The notes: generated by a model from the letters alone, not told the origin. DNA of 64,000 nucleotides from an uncultured Candidatus Saccharibacteria bacterium (GCA_965231055.1 OZ246411.1:116711-180710), one strand, 5' to 3'; positions 2,187 to 40,050 are shown, counted from the first letter of the stretch. Translations and numbers: made by a program.

Positions 2187-2264
2187 TCAGCTTTCAGTAT
2201 TCATAAAAATCTACTCAACATCGCCTAAAACAAATGAATACTGATCGCTGAAAACTGAATACTT
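2187..2264. repeat. Family-A intergenic palindromic repeat (core TGAATACTGA-N-ACTGAATAC / GTATTCAG), immediately upstream of trpS
   Basis: Shares the 14-mer gaatactgatcgct with 25246..25262. Related copies at 15335..15450, 17290..17395, 25201..25270 and 39950..40050. Confidence 0.65.
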
Positions 2265-2275
2265 AATCTAAAAAT

Positions 2276-6780: not shown

Positions 6781-7179
6781 ATGAAAGGATTCAATGCGAA
6801 CATCGAAAAAGAAACTTTGGAAAACACCAATTTTCGCAAGGTTCTCTATACTGGCAAGCATAGCCAGCTAGTTCTTATGTCTCTTAAACCAAAGGAGGAA
6901 ATCGGAATGGAGATTCACAAAGAAAATGATCAATTTTTCCGATTTGAGAAAGGCCAAGGCAAATGCATCATAGATGGCAATGAGTACAGCGTAGAAGATG
7001 GCTCTGCGATAGTAGTTCCAGCAGGAGCTGAGCACAACATCATCAACGTCTCTGAAACCGAGGATCTCAAGCTTTACACCATCTACTCCCCCGCCCACCA
7101 CAAAGACGGTATCGTGAGAACTACAAAAGAAGAAGCCGAAGCCAATGACGAGGAGTTTGATGGAAAAACCACAGAATAA
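6781..7179 (+). CDS. Cupin-domain protein
   Basis: 132 aa. Cupin motif 2 PxGxxHxxxN is present (VVPAGAEHNIIN). It is too short and lacks HxH for a confident acireductone dioxygenase call. Confidence 0.65.
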   Translation: MKGFNANIEKETLENTNFRKVLYTGKHSQLVLMSLKPKEEIGMEIHKENDQFFRFEKGQGKCIIDGNEYSVEDGSAIVVPAGAEHNIINVSETEDLKLYTIYSPAHHKDGIVRTTKEEAEANDEEFDGKTTE

Positions 7180-15324: not shown

Positions 15325-15334
15325 ATTTTTAGTA

Positions 15335-15450
15335 TTAAGTGTTCAGTTTTCAGTTTTCAAAATCATGAATACTGATAACTGAATACTTGCTTGCCCGCCA
15401 GAGGCGGACAGGCGCAAGCAAGCTAACCACTGAGTACTTATTGTACCCCA
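15335..15450. repeat. Family-A repeat copy plus a GC-rich hairpin (cttgcttgc-ccgccagaggcggacaggc-gcaagcaag)
   Basis: gttcagttttcagttttc ... gaatactgataactgaatactt. The hairpin segment gcgcaagcaagct is also present at 3380..3393. Confidence 0.65.
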
Positions 15451-21260: not shown

Positions 21261-21710
21261 ATGAACCTCAACAAAGTCATGCTAATCGGTAGACTCACCC
21301 AAGATCCAGAGGCGAGAACTACCCCAAACGGTCAACAAGTCACCTCATTTTCGGTGGCAACAAACAAAGTCTGGATCGATAAGTCTGGACAAAAGCAAGA
21401 AAAAACCGAGTTTCACAATGTGGTTGTATGGGGAAAGCTCGCTGAAACTATGGGAAAGTTCCTTGTAAAGGGACAAGAAGTTTGCGTAGAAGGAAGCTTG
21501 CAAACACGATCATGGGAAGCGCAAGATGGAGTAAAAAAATACCGCACCGAAATTGTTGGTAGCAAAGTAGAGATGGGTCAGAAACCAGCAGGTGCAAAAT
21601 CCAATTCCGCTCCAAAGCAGCAAAAAGCTCAAGAATCCAAACCAGCTCAAGAATCACCAAAATCAGCTCCGGCAGAAGAAGAGATAAACATAGAAGACAT
21701 TCCTTTTTAA
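21261..21710 (+). CDS. ssb: Single-stranded DNA-binding protein
   Basis: OB-fold N-terminus (MLIGRLTQDPE...FSVA) and the acidic C-terminal tip DIPF. Confidence 0.9.
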   Translation: MNLNKVMLIGRLTQDPEARTTPNGQQVTSFSVATNKVWIDKSGQKQEKTEFHNVVVWGKLAETMGKFLVKGQEVCVEGSLQTRSWEAQDGVKKYRTEIVGSKVEMGQKPAGAKSNSAPKQQKAQESKPAQESPKSAPAEEEINIEDIPF

Positions 21711-22993: not shown

Positions 22994-24058
22994 TTAGCTC
23001 GCTTTTTTATCTTCCGCTTCTTTATTCTTCGAAGCTTCTCTGATTTCTTTTTCTATTGTCTCCGAAATATCTTTATGTTCTCTTAGGAATTTTTTAGCAG
23101 ATTCTCTTCCCTGTCCGATCTTTTCTCCCTTATACTCAAACCATGATCCAGCTTTACCTACAACATTGTACACCAAACCGATATCTACCAGATCACCCTC
23201 TTTTGAGATTCCTTCATTGTACATAATATCAAATTCGGCGAGCTGAAATGGAGGAGCTACTTTGTTTTTTACTATTTTTACTTTATGTCTTCCTCCCAAA
23301 AGCTTATCACCTTGTTTGATCTGAGCTTTGCGTCGTATTTCTATTCTGACCGATGAGTAAAATTTCAAAGCTTTTCCGCCAGTTGTTGTTTCTGGATTTC
23401 CAAACATAACACCGATATTCATCCTTATCTGGTTTAGAAATACTACCGTGGTCTTGCTCTTGCTCACTATAGCGGTAAGCTTTCTAAGTGCCTGACTCAT
23501 AAGCCTAGCGTGAAGTCCCATGTGTGAATCTCCCATATCTCCCTCTATTTCGGCTCTAGGAGTGAGTGCTGCCACGGAGTCAATAACTATAAGATCTATA
23601 GCGTTTGACCTAACTAGCGTCTCAACGATATCTAGCGCCTGTTCTCCAGTGTCTGGCTGAGAGATAAGCAAATCATCGATATTTACACCTGTTTTCTTAG
23701 CATATCCAGGATCTAACGCATGTTCTGCGTCTATAAACGCAGCTACTCCACCTCTTTTTTGTGTCTCAGCAATAATATGCTGTGCAAGGGTGGTTTTTCC
23801 AGAGCTTTCAGGGCCAAATATTTCTATAACTCTTCCCTTTGGAATTCCTCCTACACCCAAAGCTAAATCCAACGAAAGAGATCCTGTAGGCGTGGACTCT
23901 ACATTCATCTTCTTGGCTTCACCTAGTTTCATAATAGCGCCATCACCAAATCTTTCCTTGATTTGATCAATAGCAGCTTCCTGGGCTCTTACCTTACCTT
24001 GGTTTTCTGGTTGTTTTTTGGAGGAGGGCTCACTTGTTTGCTTTTTTTTCTTGACCAT
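22994..24058 (-). CDS. recA: Recombinase RecA
   Basis: [11 protein letters not shown]alker A. The full core is conserved ([35 protein letters not shown]). Confidence 0.95.
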
Positions 24059-25200: not shown

Positions 25201-25270
25201 TTAAGTAATCAGTATTCAGTTTTCAGTTGCACATTATTGAATACTGAATATTGAATACTGATCGCTTCCA
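25201..25270. repeat. Family-A repeat copy (near-perfect inverted repeat)
   Basis: cagtattcagttttcag ... tgaatactgaatattgaatactgatcgct. Confidence 0.65.
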
Positions 25271-27114: not shown

Positions 27115-29382
27115 CTAAAATTTCTCTTCTTCTGATGGAGTTTCCTCTGAATCTTCTGACATCTGCTCAGATGGATTGTCTAATCCATTTAGCTCTCTCA
27201 CAGCTCCTTCGTGTTCTAGTTTATATTTTCCGACAACTTCTCTTGGTTTGGAACCATCAGGAGGTCCAACTATGCCGTTTTGTTCGAGCAAATCTAGTAA
27301 TCTTGCAGCTCTAGCATATCCTACTCGTAGTCTTCTTTGCAAAAGCGAAGCGGAACCCTTTCCCATTCTAATAATTTCTGTTTTTGCATCTTCATACAAT
27401 GCATCTTCCGATCCACCCTCTTCGCTCATAAAACTACTGCTAGTAAATGATCCTCCGGTATTACGCTCCACCACATCACTATTATAGTCAGGAACACCTT
27501 TTTCCTTAAGACTACCAGTAACTTTTTCTATTTCACCTTCTTCAACGAAAGCTCCCTGAATACGTCTTGGTTTATTTAGGTCAGCTGAGATGTAAAGCAT
27601 GTCTCCATTTCCCAAAAGTTTTTCAGCTCCAGATGAATCAAGAATAGTCCTTGAATCAGTTTGAGAAGCAACGGCAAAAGCTATCCTGGTTGTAATGTTG
27701 GCTTTAATGAGACCAGTGATAACATCTACAGAAGGTCTTTGAGTTGCAAGCACTAGATGGATACCCACAGCGCGAGCCATCTGAGCAAGTCTCACTACGG
27801 CACCCTCAACATCAGCAGCAGCAACAGCCATAATATCAGCCAACTCATCAACAACAATAACGATATAAGGCAAACTCTTTTTGCGCATAGATTTGTTGTA
27901 GCTTTTTATATCTCTTTTTCCTGTTTCAGAAAGAAGCTGATATCGCCTATCCATTTCGCCTACAACCCATTTGAGCGCATTAACAGTTTTCTTGGTGTCT
28001 GTAATAACAGGAGTAAGCAAATGAGGAATATTGTTGTAATTACTCATCTCTACCCTCTTTGGATCTATAAGAATGAGTTTAAGTTCTGATGGAGTTTTTT
28101 TGTAAAGCAAACTCATAAGCAGTGCGTTCATGCACACGCTTTTACCTGAACCAGTGGCACCAGCTATGAGCAGGTGAGGCATCTTATCAAGTGCTGCTAC
28201 GACAGGAACTCCAGCCACATCGCGTCCAAGTGAAAATGGAAGCTTGTGCTTGAAATTCTGATACTCGCCCGATTCTACAATTTCTCTTACTCTTACAAGA
28301 GCAACTGTTTCATTTGGAATTTCAATGCCAACAAGAGATCTTCCAGGTATTGGAGCCTCTATTCGTATTGATTTAGCAGCAAGGACAAGCGCAATATCAT
28401 TTTGCAAAGCAACTATTTTGCTAAGCTTTACTCCGTCAGCAGGCTTAAGAGTGTACTGCGTAACAGTAGGTCCTATGTTTACTTCTGCCATCTCCACTTC
28501 TATTCCAAAATTAGCAAAAGTTTTTTCTATGAGCTCTGCGTTTTTCTTTATATCGCCAGAAGTTGGCTTTCCAAACTCCCCATTAAGAAGATCTATGGAA
28601 GGAAACTCCCAATCATCTCTAACTTCAGTGAGCACCGCTCCCTCTGCTATTGGCTCTTTATAGTCCAAAACTTCAAGTTCTTTTTCCTCTACATCTCTAT
28701 TTTCTTCTTCGGCCAATTCAGATACCTCTTCTAGGGCTTCATCTTTTTCTTCCGACTCTCCTTCATCCTCTCCCGTCTGAATTCCATTTACTTTGAGTTG
28801 CTTTCTTTTCATCCTCTCTTTTGCGATCTCAATTTTGTTGAAAATTTCTTTGAAAGAGATATCGAATATTATAAGCAAAGAAACCAAGAATAAAACTACT
28901 AATATAATCCAATTGGCTATCTCACCAACTGCAGATATAAGTCCGAAACTAACGATATAGCCTATATATCCTCCACCAGAACCCTCAGACACAGCATTAA
29001 AAAGCTCTTCAAATGGTAAAAAGGAATGAAATATACCAAGTATGGTTATAACGAGTACAGCAATACCAAAATAGAGAATTTTTTTGAACGGTGCTTCTTT
29101 CTGAAAAAGAGTATATCCAGCAAAAATCAAAAGCAATGGTACAAAAAATGATCCCCACCCAAAAAATAATTTCATAAACTCATGCCAATATTTTCCTGCC
29201 GTACCAGCAGCGTTAAAGAGAGCCAAAACTGAAAAAGCAGCTATTAAAAATAATACCAAAACCCAAATACCTTTTTTTACTTCTGGGCTTAGTACAAATC
29301 CTTCTTTTCGCGCTCTAGATTTTTTTCGCCTTTTTTTCGAAGGTGAAGTTGTTTTTTCTGTAATTTTGTTTTTTCGTGCCAT
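27115..29382 (-). CDS. ftsK: DNA translocase FtsK/SpoIIIE
   Basis: N-terminal TM segments, Walker A GATGSGKSV, and a C-terminal gamma-like winged helix. Confidence 0.9.
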   Translation of the reverse strand: MARKNKITEKTTSPSKKRRKKSRARKEGFVLSPEVKKGIWVLVLFLIAAFSVLALFNAAGTAGKYWHEFMKLFFGWGSFFVPLLLIFAGYTLFQKEAPFKKILYFGIAVLVITILGIFHSFLPFEELFNAVSEGSGGGYIGYIVSFGLISAVGEIANWIILVVLFLVSLLIIFDISFKEIFNKIEIAKERMKRKQLKVNGIQTGEDEGESEEKDEALEEVSELAEEENRDVEEKELEVLDYKEPIAEGAVLTEVRDDWEFPSIDLLNGEFGKPTSGDIKKNAELIEKTFANFGIEVEMAEVNIGPTVTQYTLKPADGVKLSKIVALQNDIALVLAAKSIRIEAPIPGRSLVGIEIPNETVALVRVREIVESGEYQNFKHKLPFSLGRDVAGVPVVAALDKMPHLLIAGATGSGKSVCMNALLMSLLYKKTPSELKLILIDPKRVEMSNYNNIPHLLTPVITDTKKTVNALKWVVGEMDRRYQLLSETGKRDIKSYNKSMRKKSLPYIVIVVDELADIMAVAAADVEGAVVRLAQMARAVGIHLVLATQRPSVDVITGLIKANITTRIAFAVASQTDSRTILDSSGAEKLLGNGDMLYISADLNKPRRIQGAFVEEGEIEKVTGSLKEKGVPDYNSDVVERNTGGSFTSSSFMSEEGGSEDALYEDAKTEIIRMGKGSASLLQRRLRVGYARAARLLDLLEQNGIVGPPDGSKPREVVGKYKLEHEGAVRELNGLDNPSEQMSEDSEETPSEEEKF

Positions 29383-29541
29383 GTAATTTAGCTATCTATA
29401 ATTCAAAAAAATATTAGTGTTTATTGTAAAGATAATAACTAAACAAAGCCTGAAATCAAGCAAATATTCACTAGTAGATTATACCCTATTTCTAGCTAAA
29501 TGGAAAGTTAATAATCAGGGTAATGCAATGAGTTTTTAGAT

Positions 29542-29839
29542 AAAAAAAGGGGGCTGCGTAAACCTTTTGCAATTGTTGAGCTTCGACTTTACGTCGAAAA
29601 CAATTTAGGTTAAAACGCATACCCCTCGCACAGAATCCATAACTGGAAAATAATTTCGATATGAATCCCGCGCTAGGCACGATCTTCCTGAGATTGCTGT
29701 AGCTTTTACTTCACCACGACAATCGTTTGAGCGCCTTGCTCCTTCGAAAACCAATGCCCCAACTGAAAGAACCAATGACCCATATTGTGTTTCACATCGC
29801 ACCTCCATTTTCTGGCATTTAAAATGCCTATCAAAACAC
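29542..29839 (-). ncRNA. Candidate structured ncRNA of unknown family (~300 nt), independently transcribed between rpoC and ftsK
   Basis: Perfect sigma70 promoter on the minus strand: TTGACA (rc of 29868-29873), 16 nt, TATAAT (rc of 29846-29851). A GC-rich body sits in an AT-rich genome. Multiple hairpins (GGCATTT-TA-AAATGCC, GUGUUU/AAACAC) and a tandem GGGuCAUUGGUU motif. A compound intrinsic terminator (GGGGTATGCGTTTTAACC...GGTTTACGCAGCCCCC + T7) ends it at ~29542. The only ORF inside (29605..29808) lacks an RBS and looks non-coding. Confidence 0.6.
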
Positions 29840-29845
29840 GTCTAA

Positions 29846-29873
29846 ATTATAATACATCAATATTCGATGTCAA
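29846..29873 (-). promoter_or_regulatory. Canonical sigma70-type promoter driving the candidate ncRNA
   Basis: TTGACA-N16-TATAAT read on the minus strand. Confidence 0.6.
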
Positions 29874-29882
29874 TACATAAAA

Positions 29883-29940
29883 AAATCCGCCTCACCCCCG
29901 AAAACTACGGATTAGTTTGACGGGTAGCGGACGGATTTTT
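29883..29940 (-). terminator. Intrinsic terminator downstream of rpoC
   Basis: Nested hairpin (atccgcc.../...ggcggat with inner aaacta-cggat-tagttt) followed by a T-run on the minus strand. Confidence 0.55.
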
Positions 29941-29948
29941 TGTGTATT

Positions 29949-32900
29949 TTATTGTTTTCTTACTGGGCGCTCTGAATCTGCTTTTTCATCCAAATCTATT
30001 TTCACAAGCTCATCCACTGAATCGATCATATCATCTCTAAATCCAGTACCTGCTGGAAGTTTCTTTCCTATAATCACATTTTCCTTGAGACCTCTTAGGT
30101 AGTCAACTTTTCCAAGAATTGCAGCGTCAATCAAAACTCTCGCAGTTTCCTGGAACGAAGCAGCTGACAAGAAGCTTTCAGTAGAAAGCGCTGCCTTGGT
30201 AATACCCAAAAGCAATTGTTCAAATGTGGCTGGCTTGCCCTTGTTGGCTTTTATTTTTCTGTTTGCTCTAAGCAGTTGCTCTTGCTCTAGGATTTCTCCA
30301 GGAACAAACTCAGTATCACCTGGCTCCAAAACTTTTGCCCTAGAAAGCATCTGTCTTACGATCATTTCTATGTGCTTGTCTGAAAGTTTCTGACCCTGTG
30401 AAGAGTAAATATACTGCACTTCTTTCAAAATATATTTTTGTACTGCCTCTATTCCGGATACTTCCATTAGACTCTTTAGATCCATATGGCCCTCTGTGAG
30501 TCGCGATCCTTTTCCTACCATATCACCTTCTTCTACGGTCAAGGCTGTTTTTGGAGGAATTATGTATTCCGCCAAATCAGAGCTGGCTCTCGTAATCTTT
30601 ATCATATTCTTTTCTATCTTTGCAATTCCATCAGCTTTGGCTTTTACTTTATCTCCATTTGATTTAACAGCTATGACTTGTCCTTTTGCAATTTCCACAT
30701 CATCTTTAACTGAAACTGAGGCTTTGTCCTTGCCTTCAATCAAAGGATATTCATCAACAACAATCTTGTCTCCGATTATCTTGATTTTCTTTTCTTTGTC
30801 AGTTTCTTCTATCATTATCTTGCCTGCAAATTCTGCAACTATAGCTGCATTTTTGATTGGTCTAGCTTCAAACAGTTCTTCAACTCTAGGAAGACCTTGC
30901 GTGATATCTTGTTCAGCGACTCCTCCAGTGTGGAAAGTACGCATAGTAAGCTGAGTTCCAGGTTCTCCAATAGACTGTGCAGCCACAATACCCACAGCTC
31001 TTCCCTTGTCCACCAATTCATTGTTTCCAAGATCCCAACCATAGCATTTTTTACAGATTCCCCTCTTGGCTTCGCAAGTAAGTACGGATCTTATGGTCGC
31101 TTCTTTGACATCTGATTTGTCTATTTTTGCAGCTATTTCTTCGTCTATAATATCCCCTGCTTTTACAAGTACCTTGTCTTTTGAATCTACGATGTCTTTG
31201 AATGCAACTCTTCCCTTGATTCGTTCTCCCATATCCACACCTATTTCTTTATTCTCTTCTGCAGTAATAGTAAATCCAGATTTGCAATTACAATCATCTT
31301 CGTAAATCACAAGATTCTGCGAAACATCAACTAGCTTTCTAGTAAGATATCCGGCGCTTGCGGTTCTAAGTGCTGTGTCAGCCAAACCTTTTCTTGTACC
31401 GTGAGTAGAGATAAAATATTCAAGAACAGATAGACCCTCTTTGAAACTTCCTTTTACTGGAAGCTCGATAGCTTTACCTGATGGGTTTGCTACAAGTCCT
31501 TTCATACCAACCATCTGAGTAGTCTGTCCCCAAGATCCTCTAGCACCAGATTCTATGAGTTGATGCATGGAATTTGATTCACCGATAGCTTTTTGAGCAT
31601 ATTCAGCAATCTGATCTTTGGTTCTGGTCCAGATTTCTATAACCTTTGAATATCTTTCGGTGTCGGTAAGAAGTCCTTGCTTGTAAAGCTGTCTCACTTC
31701 TTCAACTTCTTTATTTCCTTTTTCTATTAATTCATTCTTTTCTTTTGGAACTACCATGTCTCCCATGCTCAAAGTAAAACCAGATCTGGTGACATTCTCA
31801 AATCCGACATTTTTTATTCTGTCTATAAGCTCTGCTGTTTTTTCATTTCCAAACATTCTATAAGCTTTGCCTATAATAGCAGTAGCTTTCTTCTTATTTA
31901 TTACGTCGTTAATAAATTGTAATTCTTTTGGCAAAACTTCATTGAACAAAACTCTACCAACACAAGTTTCAATAAGTTCTCCATCTATTCTGACTTTTAT
32001 TTTAGCCTTTAGCCCAATGATTTCTGAATCATAGGCCAAGATAGCTTCCTCAGGAGATCCGAAGATTTTGCCTTCACCTTTTTCTTTGGCTCTAATCATG
32101 GTCATGTAGAAACATCCCAAAACCATGTCTTTGTCAGCCGTAGTAACTGGAATACCGGTTGCAGGCTTTAGAAGGTTGTGCTTCGAAACCATGATCTCAG
32201 CCGCCTCTTCCTTTGCTTCATCTGAGAGAGGAACGTGAACAGCCATCTGGTCTCCGTCAAAGTCAGCGTTGAAAGCTGGACATACTACTGGGTGAACTTG
32301 GATTGCTTTTCCTTCTATGAGTACTGGCTGAAAAGCCTGAATACCAAGTCTGTGAAGTGTAGGAGCGCGGTTTAGCATAACATGATGTCCTGCTATTACT
32401 TTTTCCAAAGCATCCCAAACTTCTGATCTTCCCTGCTCTATCAGTTTACCAGCACTTCTAACATTGTGAGCATATTCGTTTTTAATAAGATCAGCTATAA
32501 CAAATGGTTTGAATAATTCTAGGGCCATTCTTTTTGGAAGTCCGCACTGATCAAGTTTAAGTTTTGGACCAACAACGATTACAGATCGTCCAGAATAATC
32601 AACTCTTTTTCCGAGCAAGTTCTGTCTGAATCTTCCCTGCTTACCCTTTAGCATGTCTGCCAAAGATTTGAGAGTTCTCTTTTGACCAGTAGAAGCTTGA
32701 ACTGCTTTTCCTCTTCTAGCACTATTATCTATAAGAGCATCAACAGCTTCTTGTAGCATTCTTTTTTCATTTCTCTGAATAACTTCAGGAGCTCCTAGCT
32801 CTTTTAATCTCTTAAGTCGGTTGTTTCTATTTATAACTCTTCTATACAAATCGTTTAAGTCTGAAGCCGCGTATCTTCCTCCATCTAGAGGAACCATCGG

Positions 32901-33872
32901 TCTTAGATCTGGTGGAATAATTGGAAGCACGGTTAGTATCATCCATTCTGGTCTCACACCAGCTCTGATCATACCCTTGACCAATTTCAATCTCTTCAAA
33001 ACTCTTTTTCTTTGAGTGGTTGTAGAAGATACTGATTGTTCATCAAGCTCTTTGCCAAGTTTAATCAAATCAACATGCTCCACCAATTTTCTTACAGCTT
33101 CTGCTCCTATACCAGCCTTGAATACATGTCCGTATTTCATAGAAAGATCTCTGTATTCCAATTCAGAAATAATTTTGAGTTGTTTCAAGTCTCTCAATTC
33201 TTTTCTGGCAATATCAAAAGCATCAGTAAGTCTATCCAACTGATCTATTTGCTCTTCTCTCAAAAGATTTATCTTTTCTCTGAATTGAGATTCGATTTTT
33301 TCTTTTACTGACTTTGCGGTTTCTGACGCAAGGCGTTTAGCTTTTTCGGCATTGATTTTTTCAAGCTTTTGGCTAAAAAGAGTTTCTATTTCTTTTTTCT
33401 TGGTTTTGACTTCACTTTTTATCTGCTTATTGGCTTCTTCCTTAGCTTTTTCATCAACTTCTGTAATGATATAATCAGCGAAATAAATCACTCTTTCTAG
33501 AGCCTGAGCAGACAGATCCAAAATCAAACCTATCTTACTAGGTACTCCTCTTAGAAACCAGATATGTGCTACTGGGGTAGAAAGTTCTATGTGTGCCATT
33601 CGTTCTCTTCGTACCACTGCCCTAGTTACCTCAACTCCGCATTTATCACACACCACACCCTTGTATCTAATTCTTTTATACTTTCCACAATAACACTCCC
33701 AATCCTTGGTAGGTCCAAAGATTTTTTCACAAAACAAACCATCTTTTTCAGGCTTCTGAGTCCTGTAGTTTATGGTTTCAGGTCTTGTAACTTCTCCGTG
33801 AGACCATTTCTTTATAACGTCAGGAGAAGCGAGTTTTAGTCTTAGTGCTTTGAAATCTATTTGAGTTGACAT
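29949..33872 (-). CDS. rpoC: DNA-directed RNA polymerase subunit beta'
   Basis: 1307 aa. NADFDGDQMAVHVP catalytic motif and zinc-binding CxxC pairs near the N-terminus. Confidence 0.97.
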   Translation of the reverse strand: MSTQIDFKALRLKLASPDVIKKWSHGEVTRPETINYRTQKPEKDGLFCEKIFGPTKDWECYCGKYKRIRYKGVVCDKCGVEVTRAVVRRERMAHIELSTPVAHIWFLRGVPSKIGLILDLSAQALERVIYFADYIITEVDEKAKEEANKQIKSEVKTKKKEIETLFSQKLEKINAEKAKRLASETAKSVKEKIESQFREKINLLREEQIDQLDRLTDAFDIARKELRDLKQLKIISELEYRDLSMKYGHVFKAGIGAEAVRKLVEHVDLIKLGKELDEQSVSSTTTQRKRVLKRLKLVKGMIRAGVRPEWMILTVLPIIPPDLRPMVPLDGGRYAASDLNDLYRRVINRNNRLKRLKELGAPEVIQRNEKRMLQEAVDALIDNSARRGKAVQASTGQKRTLKSLADMLKGKQGRFRQNLLGKRVDYSGRSVIVVGPKLKLDQCGLPKRMALELFKPFVIADLIKNEYAHNVRSAGKLIEQGRSEVWDALEKVIAGHHVMLNRAPTLHRLGIQAFQPVLIEGKAIQVHPVVCPAFNADFDGDQMAVHVPLSDEAKEEAAEIMVSKHNLLKPATGIPVTTADKDMVLGCFYMTMIRAKEKGEGKIFGSPEEAILAYDSEIIGLKAKIKVRIDGELIETCVGRVLFNEVLPKELQFINDVINKKKATAIIGKAYRMFGNEKTAELIDRIKNVGFENVTRSGFTLSMGDMVVPKEKNELIEKGNKEVEEVRQLYKQGLLTDTERYSKVIEIWTRTKDQIAEYAQKAIGESNSMHQLIESGARGSWGQTTQMVGMKGLVANPSGKAIELPVKGSFKEGLSVLEYFISTHGTRKGLADTALRTASAGYLTRKLVDVSQNLVIYEDDCNCKSGFTITAEENKEIGVDMGERIKGRVAFKDIVDSKDKVLVKAGDIIDEEIAAKIDKSDVKEATIRSVLTCEAKRGICKKCYGWDLGNNELVDKGRAVGIVAAQSIGEPGTQLTMRTFHTGGVAEQDITQGLPRVEELFEARPIKNAAIVAEFAGKIMIEETDKEKKIKIIGDKIVVDEYPLIEGKDKASVSVKDDVEIAKGQVIAVKSNGDKVKAKADGIAKIEKNMIKITRASSDLAEYIIPPKTALTVEEGDMVGKGSRLTEGHMDLKSLMEVSGIEAVQKYILKEVQYIYSSQGQKLSDKHIEMIVRQMLSRAKVLEPGDTEFVPGEILEQEQLLRANRKIKANKGKPATFEQLLLGITKAALSTESFLSAASFQETARVLIDAAILGKVDYLRGLKENVIIGKKLPAGTGFRDDMIDSVDELVKIDLDEKADSERPVRKQ

Positions 33873-39949: not shown

Positions 39950-40050
39950 TTAGTTTTAAGTATTCAGTATTCAACTTTCTGTACTTGGCAATCATTATAG
40001 ATAGCCAACTGGATACTGAAAACTGACTACTGCGTGCTTATTGTAACCAA
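39950..40050. repeat. Family-A repeat copy
   Basis: agtattcagtattcaac ... ggatactgaaaactgactactg ... cttattgtaacc (the tail is shared with 15420..15445). Confidence 0.6.

What the first reader, a model, noticed from the sequence alone, without database searches (positions are those of the whole stretch)
29542..29873. Independently transcribed ~300-nt structured ncRNA between rpoC and ftsK, family not recognised
Several independent signals converge on this locus:
- A perfect sigma70 consensus promoter on the minus strand (TTGACA, 16 nt, TATAAT).
- A body that is markedly GC-richer than the surrounding AT-rich genome.
- Multiple stable hairpins and a tandem GGGuCAUUGGUU motif.
- An unusually elaborate three-level intrinsic terminator (GGGGUAUGCGUUUUAACC ... 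AAUUGUU-UUCGAC-GUAAA-GUCGAA-GCUC-AACAAUU ... GGUUUACGCAGCCCC + U7).
The ftsK gene has its own -10-like element further downstream (GGTATAAT at ~29470), so the RNA appears autonomous rather than a simple leader.

I found no RNase P P4 sequences (GGAAAGUCCGG / ACAGAAACCCGGCUUA), no tmRNA tRNA-like 3' end, and no clear SRP helix-8 motif. The embedded 67-codon ORF has no RBS and an Arg/Cys-rich composition. It may be a lineage-specific housekeeping or regulatory RNA.
Basis: partly seen in the sequence, partly recalled or inferred. Interest (0 to 1): 0.8.

Follow-up and report, generated by a model that had tools for sequence, protein, structure and literature searches.

The report
Orphan small gene between rpoC and ftsK
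The ~300-nt stretch is a real, self-contained transcription unit, but it occurs in only one narrow lineage of a Patescibacteria (CPR) bacterium and most likely encodes a 29-residue peptide behind a classic ribosome-binding site, so it is not a conserved structured housekeeping RNA.

Summary
These are a 12/12 sigma-70 promoter (29873..29846, minus strand), a ~298-nt body, a tandem GGGYCAUUGGUU motif, a nested three-level terminator with U7 (29627..29542), and a separate ftsK promoter. No Rfam family matches.

The comparative evidence changes the reading.
- Only one close relative exists in the data I could reach (L083; FtsK 92% aa identity).
- More distant Patescibacteria keep rpoC next to ftsK with a gap of only 79-255 nt and no such unit. 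The unit is therefore a genus-level insertion, not a housekeeping RNA.
- Against L083 the body is about 54% identical. That is at or below the identity of four-fold degenerate sites (63-69%).
- What is conserved is the promoter hexamers, a 5' stem, the terminator, and one 40-nt block.
- That block is GGAGGTG, then 4 nt, then GTG (ATG in L083), then nine conserved codons (MKHNMGHWF).
- The changes inside the block are silent or keep a start codon, and the indels in the peptide alignment are whole codons.
- The "tandem motif" encodes GHWF twice.

Best reading: an orphan small-protein mRNA, possibly dual-function, with structured UTRs. A non-coding sRNA is not excluded. Interest is modest.

The parts
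29880..29941 (-). rpoC intrinsic terminator. It is a long hairpin with base AAAAAAUCCG / CGGAUUUUUU, and it marks the upstream boundary of the unit.
   Evidence: Perfect 10-nt inverted repeat I1. The base of the stem is kept in L083 while the interior is diverged.
29846..29873 (-). Sigma-70-type promoter: TTGACA, 16 nt, TATAAT.
   Evidence: Scores 12 of 12. L083 has TTGACA, 16 nt, TATATT at the same place with a diverged spacer.
29814..29828 (-). 5'-UTR stem-loop GGCAU-UUUAA-AUGCC. The inferred transcription start is near 29839.
   Evidence: The stem is invariant in L083, which has GGCAU-CGUUG-AUGCC (alignment A3). It is predicted in the folds of both species.
29770..29809 (-). The only block that blastn aligns with the relative (92.5% over 40 nt). 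It holds the Shine-Dalgarno sequence GGAGGTG (29806..29800), a 4-nt spacer, the start codon GTG (29795..29793) and codons 2-9.
29706..29795 (-). Candidate small ORF of 29 codons plus TAA: (V->M)KHNMGHWFFQLGHWFSKEQGAQTIVVVK. The two copies of the tandem motif (29783..29770 and 29762..29749) encode GHWF twice, 7 codons apart.
   Evidence: The L083 counterpart is MKHNMGHWFRWFRENVAESNHLTGAEVTDKG. Peptide alignment A4.
29628..29673 (-). 3'-UTR hairpin H1, a 14-bp stem (GCGCGGGAUUCAUA ... UAUGGAUUCUGUGC) that directly abuts the terminator.
   Evidence: L083 has a hairpin of different sequence at the equivalent position.
29542..29627 (-). Three-level intrinsic terminator plus U7.
   Evidence: The structure is kept in L083: helices 2-4 are 90-100% paired, with two compensatory double changes and one A-to-G change that gives G-U.
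29383..29541 (-). Context only, not part of the unit: the ftsK promoter (29506..29478) and ftsK 5' UTR. This stretch is more conserved than the coding DNA.
   Evidence: About 90% identical to L083, against 84-88% for coding DNA and 63-69% for four-fold sites.

Best explanation
This is a genus-restricted, monocistronic small gene inserted between the rpoC terminator and the ftsK promoter of a Patescibacteria (CPR) genome.

**Shown or read directly from the sequence**
- A consensus sigma-70 promoter should start a transcript near 29839 and produce an RNA of about 298 nt.
- A short 5' stem-loop precedes a canonical Shine-Dalgarno sequence, GGAGGUG.
- Six nt after GGAGG, a GTG (ATG in the relative) opens a 29-codon ORF.
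- A 160-nt 3' UTR folds into one long hairpin plus an elaborate nested terminator. The terminator ends the transcript and insulates ftsK, which has its own promoter.

**Inferred**
- The product is a His/Trp/Phe-rich peptide with a fixed N-terminus, MKHNMGHWF, and a fast-changing C-terminal half.
- The peptide, rather than a folded RNA body, is the main functional product.
- The conserved 5' stem and the 3' domain serve mRNA stability and termination.

**Speculative**
- The peptide acts as a small aromatic helix that binds a membrane or a protein.
- Its rapid evolution reflects a lineage-specific accessory role.
- A second, RNA-level role (a dual-function RNA) remains possible.
For: 1. **Unit boundaries are conserved.** The only close relative, L083, keeps the promoter hexamers, the 5' stem, the terminator and a similar overall length.
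2. **The one conserved internal block is a translation-initiation region.** It is GGAGGTG, 4 nt, a start codon and 9 identical codons.
3. **The three substitutions inside the ORF part of the block preserve the reading.** They are GTG to ATG (both start codons), AAT to AAC and TTC to TTT (both silent).
4. **The ORF is open in both species** (29 and 31 codons). Taken alone this is weak: shuffled downstream sequence stays open that far with P = 0.31 and 0.22.
5. **Indels respect the reading frame.** Internal repeats have periods of 21 nt in the window and 9 nt in L083. The gaps in the peptide alignment are whole codons.
6. **The Shine-Dalgarno sequence is credible in this genome.** Most genes here lack one, but a subset, including the recA- and ssb-like genes, have AGGAGG 5-9 nt before the start.
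7. **The competing 67-codon ORF is not conserved.** In that frame the same substitutions change amino acids, and the frame breaks in L083.
8. **The rest of the body changes at about the neutral rate.** It is 54% identical, against 63-69% at four-fold sites. That argues against a sequence-constrained RNA fold in the body.
Against: - There are only two sequences, so every evolutionary argument rests on a handful of sites and was made after seeing the data.
- The peptide has no homologue. Nothing was found in Pfam, NCBIfam or PADLOC. Among 1.84 billion representative proteins, only repeat-driven hits appeared.
- Only 13 of about 29 residues are identical between the two species, and the C-terminal halves barely align.
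- Amphipathicity does not exceed shuffled peptides (P = 0.17 and 0.08).
- The window uses GTG, a weaker start codon.
- The 3' UTR is longer than the ORF and significantly structured in both species (z = -4.5 and -3.6). Its inner helices are better conserved than termination alone requires. That fits an RNA-level function.
- There are no expression or translation data.
Confidence: 0.55

Rival explanations
1. It is a non-coding, trans-acting regulatory sRNA. The conserved 40-nt block would be a seed or protein-binding region. The 5' stem and the 3' hairpin-plus-terminator would be stability and chaperone-binding modules. The ORF would be incidental.
For: - Conserved block plus conserved terminator with a drifting middle is the usual evolutionary pattern of bacterial sRNAs (established knowledge; the pattern itself is seen).
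- The 3' domain is significantly structured in both species, with two compensatory pairs and one G-U change that only makes sense on this strand.
- ORF openness alone is not significant.
Against: - The conserved block is exactly a Shine-Dalgarno sequence, correct spacing, a start codon and in-frame codons.
- The substitutions in it are silent or keep a start codon, and indels are whole codons.
- A GGAGG-containing seed would pair with CCUCC, not with ribosome-binding sites.
- No target could be identified from a 64-kb window.
Confidence: 0.25
2. It is a leader-peptide or attenuator element that tunes read-through into ftsK. Translation of the His/Trp-rich ORF would remodel the downstream hairpins and decide whether the terminator forms.
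For: - It lies directly upstream of ftsK and combines a short ORF, hairpins and a terminator.
- In the window's MFE fold, ORF codons 12-17 pair with 3'-UTR sequence.
- The 160 nt upstream of ftsK are unusually conserved.
Against: - ftsK has its own conserved promoter downstream of the terminator.
- Relatives express ftsK without any such element.
- No conserved alternative antiterminator pairing is shared by the two species.
- The stop codon lies about 30 nt before H1 and about 80 nt before the terminator.
- There is no physiological logic linking His or Trp supply to ftsK.
Confidence: 0.07
3. It is the toxin mRNA of a type I toxin-antitoxin pair: a small toxic peptide whose ribosome-binding site is sequestered, controlled by an antisense RNA.
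For: - It is a small ORF in a roughly 300-nt structured mRNA with a long 3' UTR.
- The Shine-Dalgarno sequence is predicted to be paired in both species, locally in the window and with a downstream CUCCA in L083.
- It is lineage-specific and evolves fast.
Against: - The peptide has no transmembrane-length hydrophobic stretch.
- No promoter-like site lies on the + strand within or next to the element.
- There is no match to PADLOC, Pfam or NCBIfam, and no meaningful Rfam antitoxin hit (OrzO-P E = 5.5, over the rpoC terminator).
Confidence: 0.05
4. It is neutral or decaying inserted DNA that happens to carry a promoter and a terminator and makes no functional product.
For: The body drifts at about the neutral rate. 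It is restricted to two genomes and has no homologues anywhere searched.
Against: At a divergence where four-fold sites are only 63-69% identical, the -35 hexamer (6/6), the -10 hexamer (5/6), the 5' stem (10/10), the 40-nt block (92.5%) and the terminator helices, with compensatory changes, are all retained.
Confidence: 0.08

Closest known systems
Bacterial small-protein (sORF, <=50 aa) genes transcribed as independent monocistronic mRNAs
   Same: It has its own promoter, a canonical Shine-Dalgarno sequence and start codon, an ORF of about 30 codons and an intrinsic terminator. It is lineage-restricted, and the gene caller used for the public contigs missed it: it called the 67-codon frame in L081/L082 and nothing in L083.
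   Different: The 3' UTR (160 nt) is longer than the ORF and strongly structured. Only the first 9 residues are fixed. No homologue and no evidence of translation exist.
Dual-function sRNAs (SgrS/SgrT, RNAIII/hld, SR1/SR1P)
   Same: It is a structured RNA of 200-500 nt that carries a short translated ORF together with conserved RNA modules.
   Different: No base-pairing target or seed outside the translation-initiation region has been identified. There is no sequence or Rfam relationship to any of these RNAs.
Type I toxin mRNAs (hok, tisB, fst, zorO and similar)
   Same: The size is similar, the ORF is small, the 3' UTR is long and structured, and the ribosome-binding site is predicted to be sequestered.
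   Different: The peptide is not hydrophobic or transmembrane. No antisense promoter was found, and no family matches.
Leader-peptide transcription attenuators (trp and his operon type)
   Same: A short ORF rich in particular residues (His, Trp) is followed by hairpins and a terminator, upstream of a gene.
   Different: The downstream gene has its own promoter. No conserved antiterminator alternative exists, and the element is absent in relatives that keep the same gene order.

Membership tests
Any Rfam 15 family (6S, SRP, RNase P, tmRNA, riboswitches, OLE/GOLLD/ROOL/raiA and others) | The covariance-model score reaches the family's gathering threshold. | tested here: not met
   There are no hits at gathering score in the 64-kb window. 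At E <= 10 over 29350..30000, four chance-level hits appear. None lies inside the element body, and all overlap the rpoC terminator, the promoter or the ftsK-side flank. ARAGORN finds no tmRNA or tRNA.
Independent transcription unit (sigma-70 promoter plus intrinsic terminator) | The -35 and -10 hexamers have 16-18 nt spacing, a GC-rich stem is followed by a U-tract, and both are kept in relatives. | tested here: met
   The promoter scores 12 of 12. The nested stem plus U7 is predicted. Both are kept in L083 with diverged spacer and loop sequences. Actual transcription cannot be tested here.
Small-protein (sORF) gene | A ribosome-binding site lies at functional spacing from a start codon. | tested here: met
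   GGAGGTG, 4 nt, then GTG in the window and ATG in L083. The same AGGAGG motif with 5-9 nt spacing precedes bona fide genes in this genome.
Small-protein (sORF) gene | The reading frame is preserved and the substitution pattern is coding-like in relatives. | tested here: inconclusive
   The frame is open in both species. The three changes in the ORF part of the conserved block are silent or keep a start codon, and indels are whole codons. There are only two sequences. ORF openness has P of about 0.07 jointly, and the C-terminal halves barely align.
Small-protein (sORF) gene | Translation has been demonstrated or homologous proteins exist. | tested here: not met
   No homologue in Pfam, NCBIfam or PADLOC, nor among 1.84 billion representative proteins beyond repeat artefacts. 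The exact peptide is not in the 15-billion-protein collection. Translation itself cannot be tested with these tools.
Conserved structured ncRNA | The secondary structure is supported by covariation across relatives along the body. | tested here: inconclusive
   Only the terminator domain shows it, with two compensatory pairs and one G-U change, n = 2. The 5' stem is invariant. The middle 200 nt cannot be aligned, and the two species' folds differ there.
Housekeeping RNA of the lineage | It is present across the phylum or class. | tested here: not met
   The syntenic rpoC-ftsK gap is only 79-255 nt in L001, L002, L039 and L085-L091. nhmmer against 80 loci finds nothing. Pattern scans of metagenome and viral contigs find nothing.
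Type I toxin-antitoxin | The toxin peptide is hydrophobic or transmembrane. | tested here: not met
   The longest hydrophobic run is TIVVV. Mean hydrophobicity is 0.15 in the window peptide and -0.12 in the L083 peptide.
Type I toxin-antitoxin | A cis-encoded or nearby antisense RNA has its own promoter. | tested here: not met
   No promoter-like site scoring >= 9 of 12 lies on the + strand between 29383 and 29948. A trans-encoded antitoxin elsewhere in the genome cannot be tested.
Leader-peptide attenuator of ftsK | The regulated gene depends on read-through, and mutually exclusive terminator and antiterminator helices are conserved. | tested here: not met
   ftsK has a conserved promoter of its own downstream of the terminator. 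No shared alternative pairing appears in the two species' folds.

The most novel reading that the evidence does not exclude
It could be a genus-specific, recently acquired dual-function RNA in a CPR/Patescibacteria episymbiont. In that reading it would encode a fast-evolving aromatic (His/Trp/Phe-rich) peptide, perhaps used at the cell envelope or the host interface or acting on division proteins next to ftsK. It would also carry a conserved 3' structured domain with an RNA-level role of its own. This would be one of the first regulatory RNA or small-protein genes defined in this poorly understood phylum.
Probability: 0.15. Interest if true: 0.5.

Novelty: new member of a known kind. Interest (0 to 1): 0.3.

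Why it matters
Patescibacteria have tiny genomes and almost no characterised regulatory RNAs or small proteins. A clearly delimited, strongly promoted accessory unit inserted into the otherwise invariant rpoC-ftsK junction is therefore a tidy candidate for study. It is known from only two genomes, has no homologues, and its function cannot be inferred. It does not reveal a new widespread RNA class. Its main practical value is as an annotation correction: the 67-aa ORF called in public assemblies is probably wrong, and a 29-aa ORF with a canonical ribosome-binding site is the better call.

Tried and rejected
**Known RNA classes**
- Rfam at gathering score over the whole window and at E <= 10 over the locus: nothing relevant.
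- ARAGORN: no tRNA or tmRNA.

**Searches for more copies or relatives**
- The genome-contig scan with the RpoC C-terminus returned only relatives at <= 56% identity. nhmmer with the element against those 80 loci found nothing.
- The three protein searches (full FtsK, RpoC C-terminus, FtsK N-terminus) gave one close relative, P0002/L083. The last two did not even return the self-protein, so they were uninformative.
- Two metagenome scans found nothing: one with the degenerate KHNMGHWF codon pattern, one with a 21-mer from the ultra-conserved ftsK upstream region. A viral scan also found nothing.
- blastn against phages and plasmids: no match.
- An exact-sequence cluster look-up found only the 67-aa frame, in a cluster of one.

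**Peptide homology**
- phmmer of the 42-aa extended ORF against 1.84 billion representatives gave three hits, all from internally repetitive proteins.
- The best-looking hit, P0243 (HLGHWTFLVGHWILKE repeated three times), is a read-through of a 243-nt tandem repeat in an unrelated high-GC contig. I rejected it as chance inflated by repetition.
- Pfam, NCBIfam and PADLOC: nothing for the peptides.

**Other ideas tested**
- Amphipathic-helix idea: not significant against shuffled peptides.
- Mobile-element idea: a 12-nt direct repeat, TTTTTTTAT(G/C)TA, brackets 337 nt, but it consists of the two terminator T-tracts and is not kept in L083. No terminal inverted repeats were found.
- 67-codon ORF: rejected because it is not conserved in L083.
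- A control window with z = -4.4 at about 44000 turned out to be antisense to a 142-aa gene on the + strand, not an RNA gene.
- One literature search on Patescibacteria, ncRNA and small proteins found nothing pertinent.

Full report
**Setting**

The window comes from a Patescibacteria (CPR) genome.
- The 1307-aa ORF at 29949..33872 (-) is RpoC and the 755-aa ORF at 27115..29382 (-) is FtsK (Pfam).
- The identical FtsK lies on an 843,892-bp NCBI contig and on Logan contigs. Its named homologues are all Patescibacteria.
- The finding's coordinates, 29542..29873, occupy most of the 566-nt gap between the two genes.

**Checking the observation**

All listed features are present.
- The promoter scan gives TTGACA, 16 nt, TATAAT at 29873..29846 on the minus strand, scoring 12 of 12. 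It also gives a second promoter, TTTCCA, 17 nt, TATAAT at 29506..29478, in front of ftsK.
- The minus-strand RNA folds to -99.8 kcal/mol, with z = -4.76 against dinucleotide shuffles.
- It ends in a nested terminator (GAGGGG / UGCGU / AACCU / AAUUGUU / UUCGAC stems) followed by U7 at 29627..29542.
- The tandem motif occurs at 29783..29770 and 29762..29749.
- In my own control the element scored z = -3.8. Forty-two other 311-nt windows of the same strand had a median of -0.27, and only one was lower. That one is antisense to a protein gene.
- GC is 0.432 against 0.374 for the window and 0.247 for the neighbouring intergenic DNA.
- Rfam gives nothing at gathering score in the whole window, and nothing inside the element at E <= 10. 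ARAGORN finds nothing.

Most of the excess folding energy lies in the last 165 nt (z = -4.5), not in the body (z = -2.7).

**Relatives**

Only one close relative could be found.
- It is Logan contig L083. FtsK is 92% identical at the amino-acid level, and the RpoC C-terminal part is 94% identical.
- It has the same layout, with a 586-nt rpoC-ftsK gap.
- The next relatives have FtsK at 55-58% identity (L085-L091). They keep the order rpoC-ftsK-iPGM-rodZ-recA, but their rpoC-ftsK gap is 120-237 nt and holds just a terminator and the ftsK promoter.
- In three further Patescibacteria/Saccharibacteria loci, rpoC is followed after 79-255 nt by an ftsK-sized (730-762 aa) ORF.
- nhmmer with the element against 80 rpoC loci found nothing.
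- Degenerate-pattern scans of JGI metagenomes and of viral contigs found nothing. blastn against phages and plasmids found nothing.

The unit is therefore a genus-level insertion into a junction that is otherwise conserved. It is not a housekeeping RNA.

**How it evolves**

| Region (window vs L083) | Nucleotide identity |
|---|---|
| rpoC | 88% |
| ftsK | 84% |
| Four-fold degenerate sites | 63-69% |
| 160 nt upstream of ftsK | about 90% |
| Element body | about 54%, with many indels |

- blastn aligns only one 40-nt block, at 92.5%.
- The following parts are retained:
  - the -35 hexamer (6/6) and the -10 hexamer (5/6), across a diverged spacer;
  - a 5' stem, GGCAU/AUGCC, that is identical in both species;
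  - the 40-nt block;
  - the terminator.
- In the terminator, helices 2-4 stay 90-100% paired. There are two compensatory double changes (A-U to G-C, and U-A to C-G) and one A-to-G change that gives a G-U pair, which is legal only in RNA of this strand.
- With two sequences none of this reaches statistical significance.
- The middle of the RNA folds differently in the two species. Each has a long hairpin just before the terminator.

**What the conserved block is**

- The block reads AAUGGAGGUGCGAUGUGAAACACAAUAUGGGUCAUUGGUU.
- It consists of a perfect Shine-Dalgarno sequence (GGAGGUG), 4 nt, GUG (AUG in L083) and nine identical codons, MKHNMGHWF.
- This opens an ORF of 29 codons in the window (29795..29706) and 31 codons in L083.
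That frame is not conserved: it breaks in L083, and the same substitutions change amino acids in it.
- In the 29-codon frame, the three substitutions inside the block are GTG to ATG, AAT to AAC and TTC to TTT. All are silent or keep a start codon.
- The "tandem motif" encodes GHWF twice, 7 codons apart. L083 has HWF-RWF with a 9-nt period. The gaps in the peptide alignment are whole codons.
- Most genes of this genome lack a Shine-Dalgarno sequence. A subset, including the recA- and ssb-like genes, carry AGGAGG 5-9 nt before the start, so the motif is a credible ribosome-binding site here.

**Weaknesses of the coding reading**

- ORF openness alone is unremarkable. Shuffled downstream sequence stays open with P = 0.31 and 0.22.
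- The C-terminal halves barely align; 13 residues are identical in all.
- Amphipathicity is not above shuffled peptides.
- The peptide has no homologue in Pfam, NCBIfam or PADLOC, or among 1.84 billion representative proteins.
  - The only hits there came from internally repetitive proteins.
  - One of them is a translated 243-nt tandem repeat from an unrelated high-GC contig.

**Interpretation**

- I put about 55% on the most economical reading: an orphan, monocistronic small-protein gene with structured UTRs. The promoter, 5' stem, ribosome-binding site, N-terminal codons and terminator are under selection, and the rest drifts.
- A purely non-coding sRNA gets about 25%. It fits the conserved-block-plus-terminator pattern and the well-kept inner terminator helices. 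It does not explain why the block is exactly a translation-initiation region with coding-like substitutions.
- An ftsK attenuator gets about 7%. ftsK has its own conserved promoter, relatives lack the element, and no shared antiterminator is visible.
- A type I toxin gets about 5%. It lacks both a hydrophobic peptide and an antisense promoter.
- Functionless DNA gets about 8%. It is unlikely given the selective retention of all signal elements at a divergence where neutral sites are about 35% changed.

**Comparison with known systems and verdict**

- The unit works like a bacterial small-protein gene or a dual-function sRNA. It belongs to no described RNA or protein family.
- The suggestion of a housekeeping RNA does not stand. 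The reading as a structured ncRNA is probably wrong, but it is not excluded.
- I rate it a new member of a known kind, with modest interest of 0.3. A clean accessory unit in a CPR genome is worth a note and an annotation fix. With two genomes, no homologues and no inferable function, it neither surprises a specialist nor opens a long-standing question.

Noticed in passing
window 2254-2266, 15328-15441, 25201-25255, 39956-40020 (also 17359, 22797, 47654, 49184): A heptamer-periodic motif (ACTGAAT / ACTGAAA / ACTTAAT; query ACTGAATACTTAA with <= 2 mismatches) has 17 hits against 3.6 expected, and 0 of 100 shuffles reach 17. Several hits lie immediately upstream of start codons and in divergent promoter regions, often in runs of 2-3 heptamers on both strands. 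It looks like a repeated operator or 5'-UTR element of this genome.
   Followed up: partly
window 29383-29541: The 160 nt between the element's terminator and the ftsK start codon are about 90% identical to the relative L083, reaching 92-95% in sliding windows. That is more conserved than the flanking coding DNA (84-88%) and far above four-fold sites (63-69%). It implies a strongly constrained ftsK promoter or 5' UTR. The stretch includes a small hairpin, GCUUGAUUUCAGGC, followed by a U-rich run.
   Followed up: partly
whole window (starts of 37 ORFs >= 150 aa): The genome is poor in Shine-Dalgarno sequences. Most genes have AT-rich upstream regions without GGAGG. A minority carry a strong AGGAGG 5-9 nt upstream: the recA-like gene at 24058, the ssb-like gene at 21261, and ORFs starting at 6907, 16688, 17526, 19257, 50711, 3936 and 20333.
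   Followed up: partly
window 29537-29548 and 29874-29885: A 12-nt direct repeat, TTTTTTTAT(G/C)TA on the minus strand, occurs twice 337 nt apart and brackets the inserted unit. One copy is the T-tract of the rpoC terminator and the other is the T-tract of the element's own terminator. It could be a footprint of how the unit arose, but it is not kept in L083 and may be chance.
   Followed up: partly
L092 4879-5677 (NCBI SDBU01004948.1, an unrelated high-GC contig): A 243-nt tandem repeat of 3.3 copies is read through as a 244-aa 'protein' (P0243). Each unit begins MKKDVHLGHWTFLVGHWILKE, which superficially resembles the window peptide (GHW..F..GHW..KE). I judged it coincidental.
   Followed up: partly
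L081 2575-2778 / L082 2451-2654 (= window 29605-29808): The gene calls attached to these public contigs take the non-conserved 67-aa frame inside the element as a gene and miss the 29-codon ORF that has the ribosome-binding site. This is probably a mis-annotation.
   Followed up: yes
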